This document shows, one piece after another, positions 12,654 to 54,625 of a stretch of 64,000 nucleotides of DNA. The translations under genes and the position numbers were made by a program. The notes below the pieces were generated by a model, which was given only the letters and a program-made list of their open reading frames with translations, searched no databases and had not been told where the DNA came from. This DNA comes from Octopus vulgaris. Its lineage: Eukaryota. The DNA lies in the NCBI GenBank assembly GCA_951406725.2, contig OX597833.1:42036001-42100000 (forward strand). The letters are read 5' to 3'. How positions within the stretch are numbered: position 1 is the first letter of the stretch; the number at the start of each line of letters is the position of its first letter.

Positions 12654-12733
12654 TTAACTTTTCATCACAGAATATACCATATTTGCAGCAACTAAAAGTA
12701 CCAGCATCATATCCATTCGAGGTAGACTGGATC
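12654..12733 (-). CDS. Single-Ig gene, coding exon 5 (GPI-anchor-signal-like tail and stop)
   Basis: Phase-1 acceptor tgtttttgcag|; encodes (G)SSLPRMDMMLVLLVAANMVYSVMKS*; small residues N-G-S-S, short spacer, hydrophobic end, no cytoplasmic tail. Confidence 0.85.
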
Positions 12734-12921
12734 CTGCAAAAACATTTTTATTTGTCTTTATCATTTTGAAAATACAAACTGTTATTTCTAATTTGTGTCC
12801 CATACCTAGTAATCATTATGTTCACAATACATCAAGAGATACAGCATTTCTATTTTTTTCATTTTACAATAGGAATTCCTAATGTAATGTAAATTTGAAT
12901 AGTGTTTAAATAAAATATTAA

Positions 12922-13122
12922 CCCTTTTGTCACCGTATTTCTGTTGAGATGCTCTCTGTCTTTCAATTAATTTTAAATATAATAAAGAATTTAGTAAAAT
13001 AACTTGGTTATCATTCAGCTAGTGTTAGGAACATAAATTGTGACTAAGATTTGGTGAATTTTAATTCAAAACTTATGGAAACAAGACATTGGTACTATAG
13101 AGCCAGATTGGTATCAAAAGAG
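12922..13122. mobile_element. piggyBac-like MITE
   Basis: TTAA on both sides; inverted ends cccttttg / caaaagag. Confidence 0.65.
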
Positions 13123-13309
13123 TTAATTATTATGATTTTGATTAGTTTAAATTAGCCAGGCTATTTTGAACACTGTATTTCATTTAATCTGATACCTGAT
13201 GATGTTAAAATAATTAATCTGATATTTCTTAAATAATTAATTATTTAAGAAATATCTGTTCTCATTAGATAGAGAATATACCATTTATTTTGTATTAGTG
13301 TCTACTCAC

Positions 13310-13487
13310 CATTGACTTTCAATGCCATTGGTCTGGAAGTTTCTGGACGTGGTGTCTTCTGAACAGTACACCTGTATATGCCAGTGTCCCAGCCACGAGG
13401 GATGGTCACATATAGGGTAGCAATTGAATTACCAGCACTGATGTGGGTGTTGATTAGGTAAGATCTTCTTGACATATCATTATCCAC
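13310..13487 (-). CDS. Single-Ig gene, coding exon 4 (second half of Ig domain)
   Basis: Phase-0 acceptor attattcag|; encodes VDNDMSRRSYLINTHISAGNSIATLYVTIPRGWDTGIYRCTVQKTPRPETSRPMALKVN(G); ATLYV E-strand and DxGxYxC F-strand motif; donor G|gtgagt. Confidence 0.92.
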
Positions 13488-14079
13488 CTGAATAATGATT
13501 AGAAATATATAGCATCATCAACAACAACAACGTCATCAATCAATCAATAATTAAATCAATATCTAATTCACCCAAGTTGAGATAATTAGAGTCAATTGAT
13601 CAACAACTTCTAGCAGAATTATCCATCAGTGGGTCATTAACCTTACAGAAAGTGTCTCTCAAAGTTATATTAATCATAGTAAAATAAGATGTCTGTTGTG
13701 ATTAGAGGGAAGTTCTAAGTTTTTGAGTAGGGAACACTTCTTATTTTATAAATTTTATTAATTGCATTTTCCTGACAGTGGCCATCATAGGTTGTCTGGG
13801 ATTCTATAATTATTTTTACTTTTGTATTTTTGATATTTATGGTAGGTGATAGAAGGCAGTGCCATCCAGTGCACCTCCATAGTGATGGGCATGAGAGCTG
13901 GTTCATATTTATCTGACTTCTACTCTTTGACCTGCTCCAGCATGGCCACAGTCAAATGACTGAAACAAGTAAAAGAGTATCAGTTGGTAGGGTCTTGACT
14001 TAAAATCCACTGCAGGCATTTTGTTATGTATTTGAATTAAATACTTAATTTTGTGTGCCAAATTTCCCTACCTCTCAGT

Positions 14080-50626: not shown

Positions 50627-51874
50627 ATGTTTCTTTATTAGCCACACAGGGCTGCACACAGATAGAACAAATTACAAGGTAGAGCTTTTCTTTTGAAGGT
50701 TAAAAAAAAAAAAAAAAAAAAAAAAAAGGAAGGGGAGTTTCGATCAAAAGGGATCGTAAAAGGAGAGAAAGAGGACAAAAAAAGGGGGTTAAAAAAAAGG
50801 GGGAGAGGAAAAAAAAATTGATCAATAGGGATCGTTATCACAGAAATGTCAATATGAAGTGTAAAGGGGAGGACAGGTGAGGTTTACCCGTGGAAAGAAA
50901 AGCCTACGGAAAAGACCACGGTAACCTCGGTCAATGAAGTCACATTTTATATTTCTTTTTTTTTTTTTTGCAAATAAGCAACTCTCTGTTTTCGATTTCT
51001 GGGTTCATAGGACTATGCTCAAGGTGGCTTCGTCATTCATACGTGCCATTCTTGCTACATTCACCCATCTTTTTTTAAACATTCGCTAGACAAAACTTGC
51101 CTCTCTACTCTCACTTTCCTTTTCAAGTGGTACTTGAAGAAGTTGATGAGAGATTGACCAGAGAGGAAAGTGTTTGTCTCCAATCCTTTCAGACGCGTCC
51201 ACCAGATACATTCTTTCGCCATAGCCACAAGGATGATGAAAATAGCTCTTCCTTCCCATTTGAAGGAAGGAGGCGTGACAATATTGACGATAGACTCAGC
51301 TGATAAACCGACTCGTCCCACACGTGACAGCAGTTGTTCGACATAAGCCCACAGGTCGGAAATTGTTGGACACTGAACGAGTGCGTGCAGAACGGTTTCG
51401 TCGCTCTGACCGCATCTCGGGCAGGTCGGCCCCGTGTTTCTCGAGCCGTGTCTGTAGAGCTTATCCCGAACGGGTAGCGCTTCTCGGTAGCACTGCCAGG
51501 CCAGGGATCTCTGGAAGTTGTCCATGGGCCCTGGCCCGAAAGTCGTCCTGAACAGGCGGGTCAGGTACTCCTCGTCGACGTCCAGGTTCGCCCCGAGCTC
51601 GTTGTCGTACCTCCCCTCCACTAAACCCCTATAGAATGCTTTGGTTGTGTTGAAGTCACTTAAGGTCGACCCAGGACGGCAGAGTTGCTTGAGAGCAACG
51701 CGACACTCGCGGTGCCATTCGCCCTTCCTCGGCCTCTTTTTGATCCACGACTGCAGTTCGGTCATGGAGACGAGCTGCGGGAAAGCGTGCCTCACAAACG
51801 GCGACCACACCTGTTCACCGTCGTCTACATAGAGCCAGAGATGCCGCAGTCTCAGCGCGTGAGACTGCGGCATC
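50627..51874 (-). mobile_element. Tx1/L1-clade LINE, 5'-truncated and young, inserted in (GATA)n
   Basis: Open ORF2 C-terminus with zf-RVT-type AWQCYREALP..CPRCGQSDETVLHALVQC; CpG-rich; T-rich 3' UTR ending aataaagaaac; (AGAT)n on both flanks. Confidence 0.88.
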
Positions 51875-53969
51875 AGATAGATAGATAGATAGATAGATAG
51901 ATAGATAGATAGATAGATAGATAGATAGATAGATAGATAGATAGATAGATAGATAGATAGATAGATAGATAGATAGATAGATAGATAGATAGATAGATAG
52001 ATTAGATAGATAGACAGACAGACAGACAGACAGACAGACAGATAGATAGATAGATAGATAGATAGATAGATAGATAGATAGATAGATAGATAGATAGATA
52101 GATAGATAGATAAGTAAACAGACAGATAGGTAGTAGTCGATGGAAAAAGAGAAAAAGAGTGTTTATTTGCACCCATCTTGAAATAATTAAAACTTAATTG
52201 AAATTTTCATAGAAATCCATCTAAAAACACTTTCATAGTAGTAGTGGAAAGTAAAATCAGTAGAGCTGCTATTCAGTTATATCCCTCTAAATTCTGATTT
52301 CCTGTTCTGCTTAGGTTGACTTAGCCTTCCATCTAATATTTGGCTAATTAGAATTAGTATCAGTCAAATGATATTCAGTGGTATATAGTGTGTAGGTTCA
52401 GTGTCATATAGTGGTATAAAGTTCATAAGTTCAGCGGTATATAGTTGGTAAGCTCAGTGGCGTGGTTATGTTCTTTGCTTATGGGTCACAATGTATTTCC
52501 TGGCAGGAATTGGACATTTTTGGAATTGGACATTTCAGGAATTGGACACTCCTGGTAGGAATTGGACATTGCGTATGGTGTACAAGCTGGTATGGAGTGT
52601 ATTTATATTTGTGTGCAATGAGGTGTTGTTACTGTTGATGTCGATTAGAACTAACTGAGCTGCCCTTTAATCAAAGACATTCCAGTACTGACCATATCAT
52701 CTTTTTTCATGGACATGGTATTTCTATATATCAATGAGACCATCACCTATATAGCACACTGGTGATCAAAGGTGTTCCAGCCATAACCATCCAGTCTTTT
52801 ATTTTAGGATTACATTACTGAAAACATCCTTTAATTTATTTAAAAAATGGTTGTTTGTTTTGTGAAGGAGATATTTTTCTATCAGATCAAATAGCTGTAT
52901 GAAGTTGAACCAATTAGGGAATCTCTTCATGGTCACTTGATGTACTAAAATAGCAGCCAAATTTTCCTCAAATCATAACCTACTGCCTTAAATAAGGAAA
53001 GGACATATTAGATAGTATAGTTTTACATGGTCCTAAAAAGACAAGATGGTCATGGCCGGAATATGTTTGGTCATAGGTCTGCTTGATAAAAGTTGGACTG
53101 AGATTACACAATAGCAACCATATACAACAGAGGTTCTGAAACTGGGATAAATTTCACTTAATAATTGGGTAAATTTACTGATTCTGGATTTATAAATAAT
53201 TTTTGTAAATATTTGCAAATGCTTGTATATATATTTTTTTAAATTCTGAAGTTAGGAAAAAATTTGAAGTAAGCTTATTTGGATTAAATGATCTATATTG
53301 CATTTGAACTTGAAATACTCATATTTAAAAACAGTATTTTAAATTTCCTCTCTCTTTCTTGTTTTATTATGGTGTAAGTATAAACTCAAATTGCTGAACC
53401 AAACTCAAGGGAAAAAGGTGAATTTACTTTTAAAAAAAAGTTGTTAGGGGATAAGTGGAATGAAAAAGTTTGTGAACTCTGATACAGAGATTCTCTTGTT
53501 GGCTTAAGACACTCTTTATTTGGCTTGTATGGAAAAGTAGCTATTTTTATAGTTGAAGATTGGGTACTATAGTTTTAGATACGTTATACTTAGTAAAAAG
53601 ATGAGGTAGTCATAGCTGGAATGCTTTTGATCATATGGACAACTTGTGATTATCAACAATAACAAAACAGATAAATGAAACAGGAATTGTACACATAAAT
53701 TACAATACATGAGACCACTGTACTCATCAGATGCACATAAACTGCGCACATACATCCAGTTAATATTCTTGACATGCATAGCTACATATAGTCATCTGAT
53801 TGTAAAAACTATACACCTACAAGCCAATATACATATGAACTTGATATCACATGTACACACAAAAATAAACAGTTCAATACTCGAACACATTAAAAAATAC
53901 ACACAAAAATACTATATATATATACACACACACACATATATATATATATATATATATATATATATATAT

Positions 53970-54160
53970 AACAGGAAGGTTTACGAAAACAAACAAAAGA
54001 CGAAGGCAGGTGGAGTACAAACAAACAAATGTATTAGTATGGCGCTCAGGAATAGAAATAGAACACAAGTCTTTTACGTTTCGAGCCTACGCTCTTCAAC
54101 AGAAAGATACACAGAAAAAAAACAAGGAGAGAAAAAATGCATGTAGGAGCTAACGATCTA
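53970..54160 (-). mobile_element. Penelope pseudo-LTR-like fragment in (TA)n
   Basis: Contains a hammerhead-like motif; (TA)n on both sides. Confidence 0.6.
54069..54107 (-). ncRNA. Minimal hammerhead-like ribozyme motif lacking stem III
   Basis: tctttctg-TTGAAGA-gcgtaggctc-GAAA-CG-TA-aaaga; palindromic ACGT; first core base is T rather than C. Confidence 0.55.
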
Positions 54161-54570
54161 TATATATATGTGTGTGTGTATATGTATGTATATATACATA
54201 TACATATACATATATATATATATATACAATGTACTGTTCCGTGATGGTAAGATCAACAAAAAAAGTTCTCCATTTGGTGAGAGATAAATATTATTTAATA
54301 GACGCAGTACATGTTTTTATGTGCAACTAATGGTTTAATATGTTGAGAAATACCTCAAACATATTCATCAGGTACAAACCACATATAACACACACACACA
54401 ACTCTGCACATATTCAATAACAGAGAAACAAATTTTCTCATACTCCATCTGTCTCTCATTTCTTCAATTTAAGAAACATAACAATGACCACCTGGTGAAA
54501 TTAGTAACATGTGAAGCACAGGAGGAAATGGTCAGTAAAATTATTTGGGACAAGGATCAGAAACACTTAC

Positions 54571-54625
54571 CAACCAAATAGGCACAGAGCACTGTAACGA
54601 AAACACCAAAACGAAATATCTCCAT
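54571..54625 (-). CDS. Single-Ig GPI-type gene, coding exon 1 (signal peptide)
   Basis: ataATGG start context; encodes MEIFRFGVFVTVLCAYLV(G); consensus phase-1 donor G|gtaagt. Confidence 0.8.

What the first reader, a model, noticed from the sequence alone, without database searches (positions are those of the whole stretch)
12654..54625. Hidden 170-aa single-Ig, GPI-signal protein with a Thy-1-like layout, spread over 42 kb
Seen: five minus-strand exons with GT-AG sites and matching phases (1,1,0,1) join into a 513-nt ORF: MEIFRFGVFVTVLCAYLVGAFNISDLQIHQSVDIVITPGEVRAGGKEKVKITCIDKKYATKVYAITISKDGRDIVTIEPPKKASWVDNDMSRRSYLINTHISAGNSIATLYVTIPRGWDTGIYRCTVQKTPRPETSRPMALKVNGSSLPRMDMMLVLLVAANMVYSVMKS. 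The ORF track shows only one exon in its frame. Known: one V-like domain plus GPI anchor is the Thy-1 layout, and a Thy-1-like GPI glycoprotein (Sgp-1) was described from squid neural tissue. IgLON, lachesin and DIP/Dpr proteins carry several Ig domains. Inferred: a lineage-specific neural or immune cell-surface recognition molecule that I cannot assign to a named family.
Basis: partly seen in the sequence, partly recalled or inferred. Interest (0 to 1): 0.8.

Follow-up and report, generated by a model that had tools for sequence, protein, structure and literature searches.

The report
Octopus single-Ig, GPI-type surface protein
This is a real, spliced octopus gene, already listed as uncharacterised in related octopuses, for a 159-residue protein with one probable immunoglobulin domain that is predicted to be lipid-anchored on the cell surface and likely acts in cell recognition; it resembles vertebrate Thy-1 in layout without shown kinship, and the proposed extra 33-base exon has no support so far.

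Summary
The gene is real, but the supported product has 159 residues, not 170. The five segments join into a 513-nt frame as stated. Transcript contigs join exons 3-4 and 4-5 in 4 of 4 runs. The one run whose upstream letters were shown splices exon 1 straight to exon 3. Orthologs in O. sinensis, O. bimaculoides and Argonauta, and a 47%-identical unnamed relative, all lack the 11 residues of exon 2. Exon-like segments as good as exon 2 are expected 0.4-2.2 times by chance in that intron. The gene is not hidden: RefSeq has it in sister species as uncharacterised, though the O. vulgaris model has other ends. A signal peptide, a divergent V-like Ig domain and a GPI signal are inferred from sequence; both structure models were low-confidence. 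The Thy-1 likeness is architectural: it tops the feature search for the whole protein and is not among the rows shown for the domain alone. Identity with squid Sgp-1 could not be tested. Verdict: a lineage-restricted new member of a known kind, of modest interest.

The parts
54571..54625 (-). Exon 1, coding part: start codon and most of the predicted signal peptide. The 5' UTR runs upstream, to about 54789 if unspliced.
   Evidence: identical to residues 1-18 of O. sinensis P0005; joined to exon 3 in run X11.
44135..44167 (-). Unsupported; it would add 11 residues and an N-glycosylation sequon at the mature N-terminus.
   Evidence: Good GT-AG sites in unique DNA, but absent from 6 of 6 relatives, skipped in X11, and 0.4-2.2 such segments expected by chance.
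30397..30433 (-). Possible alternative first coding exon without a signal peptide; counterpart of the O. bimaculoides X2 model.
   Evidence: 11 of 12 residues match P0008 1-12; not tested with reads.
15866..16032 (-). Exon 3: predicted signal-peptidase site and first half of the Ig-like domain (Cys42).
   Evidence: Covered and joined to exon 4 in 4 of 4 runs; matches P0004-P0008, P0011, P0017 (for five of them).
13310..13487 (-). Exon 4: second half of the Ig-like domain (D-x-G-x-Y-x-C motif, Cys114) up to the predicted anchor residue Asn133.
   Evidence: Pfam ig E 4e-4, 21.0 bits against a cut-off of 21.8; joined on both sides in 4 of 4 runs.
12650..12733 (-). Exon 5: predicted GPI signal (spacer plus hydrophobic tail), stop codon ending at 12654, 4 nt of UTR, then a splice donor.
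9211..9540 (-). The start is exact; the 3' end is not determined (9315 by X11's length, 9211 by X1's).
   Evidence: X11 loose end at 12650 maps to 9511-9540 with 1 mismatch, 0.00 expected by chance; AG acceptor with pyrimidine tract; X1 fits by length only.

Best explanation
This is a spliced octopus gene whose supported mRNA (exons 1, 3, 4, 5, 6) encodes a 159-residue precursor that is predicted to be exported, to fold as one V-like Ig domain and to be GPI-anchored at the cell surface, where it likely works as a low-affinity recognition or adhesion ligand for a different surface molecule. Shown: splicing of exons 3-4-5 (4 of 4 runs), of exons 1-3 and 5-6 (1 run displayed), and conservation of the whole layout. 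Inferred in order: cleavage of the signal peptide after about Ser20; a Cys42-Cys114 disulfide; GPI transamidase cleavage at Asn133 (or Gly134/Ser135) with loss of the last 26 or so residues; display on the outer leaflet. With no cytoplasmic part, it would signal only through a partner in the same or the facing membrane. The domain is basic in all four full-length relatives (net +7 to +8), so an acidic partner, such as a heparan-sulfate proteoglycan or an acidic receptor face, is my best guess. The likeness to Thy-1 is most likely a shared minimal architecture, not orthology.
For: Splicing. The window's four-exon product differs from O. sinensis P0005 at 1 of 159 residues, from O. bimaculoides P0007 at 9 and from Argonauta P0006 at 30. 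P0017 keeps the layout at 47% identity: 53 of 113 domain, 9 of 20 signal and 12 of 26 tail residues identical. Ig hallmarks in 4 of 4: two cysteines 72 apart, a B-strand pattern and a D-x-G-x-Y/W-x-C F-strand motif. Pfam ig, Ig_2, Ig_3 and V-set hit weakly in P0004-P0008. Domain-only Atlas hits at 0.91-0.94 are unnamed clusters and V-set/Ig clusters. Export and anchor: N-terminal 11-residue hydropathy 2.6-2.7; C-terminal 2.2-2.5 with best 19-residue window only 1.4-1.5; no internal hydrophobic segment; N-G-S conserved 26-28 residues from the end in 4 of 4. This fits a cleavage site plus terminal hydrophobic domain (PMC2115511, abstract; detailed omega-site rules recalled). Thy-1 binds syndecan-4 through a heparin-binding domain (PMC9208718, passages), a precedent for the acidic-partner guess.
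Confidence: 0.65

Rival explanations
1. It is a true invertebrate Thy-1 relative, perhaps the gene of squid Sgp-1: an abundant neuronal raft protein descended from the same ancestor as vertebrate Thy-1.
For: Same length and layout; best whole-protein Atlas hits are Thy-1-named chordate clusters of 151-161 aa (0.95-0.96; 209 of 256 features shared for the first). A review states that Thy-1 homologs were described in squids (PMC6497726, passage). The 1988 squid paper exists (reference entry only).
Against: No Thy-1 cluster is among the 10 rows shown once signal and tail are removed. phmmer over 1.84 billion representatives gave 8 hits at E<=0.001; none of the 6 non-self hits is named Thy-1. There is no RLD/RGD motif in the domain in 4 of 4 relatives and only one N-glycosylation sequon, at the predicted anchor site. 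My recollection, unverified, is that Sgp-1 is shorter than this 113-residue domain.
Confidence: 0.12
2. Exon 2 is a real regulated microexon. Its inclusion gives the reader's 170-aa isoform, with a new signal-cleavage site and an added N-glycan next to the first strand, which would tune binding.
For: In-frame, stop-free, phase 1-1; acceptor 13 of 16 pyrimidines and donor 6 of 9 consensus, as good as exon 3; in unique DNA; creates an N-I-S sequon. Contigs drop rare variants, so skipping in one contig does not exclude it.
Against: Absent from 6 of 6 relatives, and it would interrupt a junction conserved down to 47% identity. Skipped in X11. One equally good segment lies on the antisense control and one more on the sense strand; 0.4-2.2 are expected by chance.
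Confidence: 0.15
3. The protein is not GPI-linked but is a secreted or tail-anchored single-Ig protein acting in innate immune recognition, for example binding acidic microbial surfaces through its basic face.
For: The basic domain. Mollusc IgSF proteins are mostly described in immune recognition (PMC11999971, abstract and passages). The tail is only moderately hydrophobic.
Against: The tail, the small-residue site before it and their spacing are conserved in 4 of 4 full-length relatives. No paralog appears in the window and domain conservation is high among octopods (96-104 of 113), unlike fast-diversifying immune receptors (general knowledge).
Confidence: 0.15

Closest known systems
Its own annotated orthologs: XP_036366768.1 (O. 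sinensis, LOC118766974), XP_014787579.1 / A0A0L8FRF4 (O. bimaculoides, 'Ig-like domain-containing protein'), GAB1601869.1 (Argonauta hians)
   Same: Same gene; 158, 150 and 129 of 159 residues identical to the window's four-exon product.
   Different: Uncharacterised. None has exon 2. The O. vulgaris model CAI9737709.1 shares exons 3-4 but has other first and last exons, so it lacks both the signal peptide and the GPI-type tail.
Thy-1/CD90 (vertebrates)
   Same: About 160-aa precursor; signal peptide, one V-type Ig domain, GPI anchor (PMC6497726, abstract start and passages); nearest clusters by whole-protein features.
   Different: No significant sequence match found; no RLD integrin motif and no N-glycan site inside the domain; the Ig domain is split by a phase-0 intron here, whereas I recall it as one exon in Thy-1.
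Squid Sgp-1 (Williams, Tse and Gagnon 1988, PMID 2894353)
   Same: Cephalopod glycoprotein likened to Thy-1 (title seen in reference lists); neural source and lipid tail recalled.
   Different: Sequence and text not held, so no comparison was made.
Dpr/DIP/IgLON (Wirin) family, lachesin
   Same: Ig-only surface recognition proteins, several GPI-linked, with weak micromolar binding (PMC10084454, passages).
   Different: These have two or more Ig domains (Dprs two); this protein has one. Only marginal matches (Dpr1 E 0.45, OPCML E 0.63).

Membership tests
Immunoglobulin superfamily, V-like domain | Two core cysteines (B and F strands) about 65-75 residues apart with a D-x-G-x-Y-x-C motif | tested here: met
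   Spacing 72 and the motif (W for Y in P0017) in 4 of 4 full-length relatives.
Immunoglobulin superfamily, V-like domain | C-strand tryptophan | tested here: not met
   Ile or Phe at the expected position. Some accepted members lack it too (recalled).
Immunoglobulin superfamily, V-like domain | Profile match above the curated cut-off | tested here: inconclusive
   Best 21.0 bits against 21.8 for Pfam ig; V-set E 0.02-0.2; all hits in P0004-P0008 but one are Ig families.
Immunoglobulin superfamily, V-like domain | Two-sheet beta-sandwich fold | tested here: inconclusive
   Low-confidence models are mostly strand; weak matches are Ig-like sandwiches, none significant.
GPI-anchored proteins | N-terminal signal peptide | tested here: met
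   Hydrophobic core 2.6-2.7 within residues 6-18 in 4 of 4. By hydropathy and motif; SignalP not available.
GPI-anchored proteins | Small-residue cleavage site, spacer and terminal hydrophobic stretch without cytoplasmic tail | tested here: met
   N-G-S 26-28 residues from the end, hydrophobic run about 143-156, only a few residues after it, 4 of 4.
GPI-anchored proteins | Release by PI-PLC or chemical proof of the anchor | not testable with these tools
   Needs an experiment.
Thy-1/CD90 | Signal peptide + single V-type Ig + GPI layout | tested here: met
   (GPI predicted only).
Thy-1/CD90 | Sequence orthology to vertebrate Thy-1 | tested here: inconclusive
   No Thy-1-named hit in phmmer; no Thy-1 row shown for the domain alone. 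No direct profile comparison was possible.
Thy-1/CD90 | RLD integrin-binding motif in the Ig domain (mammalian Thy-1) | tested here: not met
   Absent in 4 of 4 domains; P0017 has RLD only in the tail predicted to be cleaved. Motif role from PMC6416198 and PMC6397864, passages.
Thy-1/CD90 | N-glycosylation sites within the Ig domain | tested here: not met
   The only sequon is at Asn133, the predicted anchor residue, in 4 of 4.
Squid Sgp-1 | Sequence match to the published protein | not testable with these tools
   Paper not held; searches gave no text with the sequence.
Dpr/DIP/IgLON/lachesin | Two or more Ig domains | tested here: not met
   One domain; the X11 contig is fully explained by exons 1, 3, 4, 5, 6; no second Ig copy in the window by tblastn.

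The most novel reading that the evidence does not exclude
This gene is the long-missing cephalopod 'Thy-1' (the Sgp-1 locus): an abundant neuronal, GPI-linked, one-domain Ig protein that cephalopods evolved independently of vertebrates, with a regulated 33-nt microexon that switches on its only N-glycan. It would be a molecular case of convergence between cephalopod and vertebrate brains and a ready neuronal surface marker.
Probability: 0.1. Interest if true: 0.7.

Novelty: new member of a known kind. Interest (0 to 1): 0.3.

Why it matters
Practical value now: it corrects the O. vulgaris gene model, which lacks both targeting signals, and defines a small conserved family with no named relatives found outside octopods and two unnamed records. 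If it proves neuronal, it is the obvious candidate to test the 1980s claim of a Thy-1-like protein in cephalopod brain and whether that likeness is convergence. As it stands, single-Ig GPI proteins are a known design, the gene is already in RefSeq for sister species, and nothing about its function is shown, so a specialist would be interested but not surprised.

Tried and rejected
No whole genome is held, so paralogs and synteny outside the window were not tested. No RNA holder was listed on record; the runs used are guessed RNA. Reads could be laid only on 10500-18000, so exons 1, 2, 6 and the alternative exon were not covered directly. Homodimer prediction gave no answer (score 0.01, mark 0.32) and is used neither way. 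Two AlphaFold jobs on 4-5 sequence alignments gave low-confidence models; fold searches on them are not counted as support. Metagenome scans were blank: exact exon-2 pattern 0 matches; family alignment 391 pattern hits, 0 confirmed. Of the 8 phmmer hits I dropped 5 as repeat-inflated or generic multi-domain matches (P0009, P0010, P0012, P0013, P0014) and kept P0004, P0005 and P0011. Rfam: 0 matches in the window. A bacterial promoter scan does not apply to this organism and was ignored. Earlier findings of this scan: nothing in 3 look-ups. Literature: 0 papers hold any of six accession or locus ids; searches listed no paper whose title or abstract start describes this gene; searches gave no Sgp-1 sequence; searches gave no usable source for Thy-1 gene structure or omega-site rules, which are therefore recalled. 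Supplements were not searched; cephalopod single-cell or proteomic tables may list the gene under these or other ids. Rejected: the O. vulgaris database ends (18738-18673, beside a repeat element, and 11371-11318), because no displayed joint links them to exons 3-4 and the contigs join exon 4 to exon 5.
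Full report
Observation. The window matches an O. vulgaris protein record at 100% over exons 3-4 and over that record's own first exon, so it is O. vulgaris or a very close relative. No whole genome was held.

Which exons are real. A search with exon 4 found three proteins, and cluster look-up added two. 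The full-length models from O. sinensis, O. bimaculoides and Argonauta are 159 aa. They equal exons 1+3+4+5, with 1, 9 and 30 differences from the window's product. An alignment search added P0017, an unnamed 164-aa relative at 45-47% identity over the whole length, and phmmer added P0011, an unnamed partial relative of exon 3. In P0017 the signal peptide also runs straight into the domain. I laid 4 of the 24 listed runs, from 4 studies, on 10500-18000. One contig per run joins exon 3 to 4 and exon 4 to 5 in 4 of 4 runs. For X11 the letters upstream of exon 3 are the end of exon 1, and those downstream of 12650 map to 9511-9540 behind a good acceptor. That contig's 874 letters add up exactly to exons 1, 3, 4, 5 and 6. 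The upstream letters of X1-X3 were not displayed, so skipping of exon 2 is seen in one run only, and that run has a different species label from the other three. These are contigs of runs guessed to be RNA; they show presence, not level or tissue.

Exon 2. Its splice sites are good and it lies in unique DNA. With thresholds set on its own scores, the 38.5-kb intron holds 2 such segments, itself included, and the antisense control holds 1. Across both strands and three phases the expectation is 0.4 to 2.2, depending on strictness (these counts include exon 2 itself). With no relative and no displayed contig carrying it, I give it about 15%.

The protein. Residues 1-20 look like a signal peptide. 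Residues 21-133 have two cysteines 72 apart and the Ig F-strand motif, but Ile/Phe where the C-strand Trp usually sits. Pfam gives only sub-threshold Ig hits, and none for P0017. PDB sequence hits are weak and mostly Ig (best E 0.004-0.006, CEACAM). AlphaFold on shallow alignments did not give confident models, and fold searches gave only non-significant sandwich matches. The Ig assignment is therefore probable, not proven. The C-terminus has N-G-S, a short spacer and a hydrophobic run ending a few residues from the stop, conserved in 4 of 4 full-length relatives, with no internal transmembrane segment. That fits the two-part GPI signal described for DAF (PMC2115511, abstract) and its handling by the transamidase (PMC8591177, passages). 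The only N-glycosylation sequon is at the predicted anchor residue, and the domain carries a net charge of +7 to +8.

How it most likely works. Export, disulfide-bonded Ig fold, GPI attachment near Asn133 and display on the outer leaflet, all inferred. It has no cytoplasmic part, so it would act as a ligand or co-receptor. GPI proteins concentrate in rafts and signal through partners (PMC11632373, passages). The conserved basic charge makes an acidic partner my preferred guess; Thy-1's binding to syndecan-4 is a precedent (PMC9208718, passages). Nothing here shows tissue or partner.

Comparison with Thy-1. With signal and tail removed, the best rows are unnamed clusters whose few recorded members are mostly cnidarian or molluscan, then assorted V-set clusters; no Thy-1 row is shown. 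Sequence searches found no Thy-1. The mammalian RLD integrin motif (PMC6416198, PMC6397864; passages) and internal glycan sites are absent. It is built like Thy-1 and may work like it in outline, but is not shown to be a member. A review mentions squid Thy-1 homologs (PMC6497726, passage); the primary paper was seen only as a reference entry and is not held, so Sgp-1 remains an open lead. Dpr/DIP/IgLON proteins have more Ig domains (PMC10084454, passages).

Novelty. The gene is in RefSeq for sister species as uncharacterised. No paper in the library names its ids, and searches listed none that describes it; supplements were not searched. Named relatives are confined to octopods, plus two unnamed records whose origin I did not pursue; the range rests on databases that sample molluscs thinly. 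It is a new member of a known kind. Interest 0.3.

Noticed in passing
window 18673-18738 and 11318-11371 (-): The O. vulgaris database model (CAI9737709.1, P0004) takes its first and last coding exons from here. The first lies beside a repeat element, and no displayed joint links either to exons 3-4, so the model probably misses both targeting signals.
   Followed up: partly
window 30397-30433 and 30223-30363 (-): The counterpart of the O. bimaculoides X2 alternative first exon (no signal peptide) is intact here, and the only other strong in-frame exon-like segment of the intron lies just downstream of it.
   Followed up: partly
window 12650/9540 (-): An intron sits in the 3' UTR only 4 nt after the stop codon; run X3 also has a low-depth contig reading through it (12347-12679).
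   Followed up: partly
window 54715-54723 (-): A GC-box-like and a CCAAT word lie about 90-100 nt upstream of the ATG, but contig lengths reach further upstream (54789-54811 if exon 1 is unspliced), so they may be in the 5' UTR or there may be a non-coding first exon.
   Followed up: no
window 51061-52206 (-), 46863-47825 (-), 24247-25366 (+), 31301-31922 (-), 21863-22282 (+): Open frames that look by eye like fragments of retrotransposons and mariner-type or other transposons inside the introns; labels are from recall, not from a search.
   Followed up: no
window 28236-28846, 25889-26256, 33037-33774, 59023-59565: Long tandem arrays with units of 27, 26, 252 and 233 nt; the 27-nt array gives long open frames on both strands that are probably not genes.
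   Followed up: no
P0017 and P0011: Both distant relatives have an adjacent Cys-Cys pair before the B strand where octopods have Ala-Gly, which could form an extra disulfide or a dimer link.
   Followed up: no
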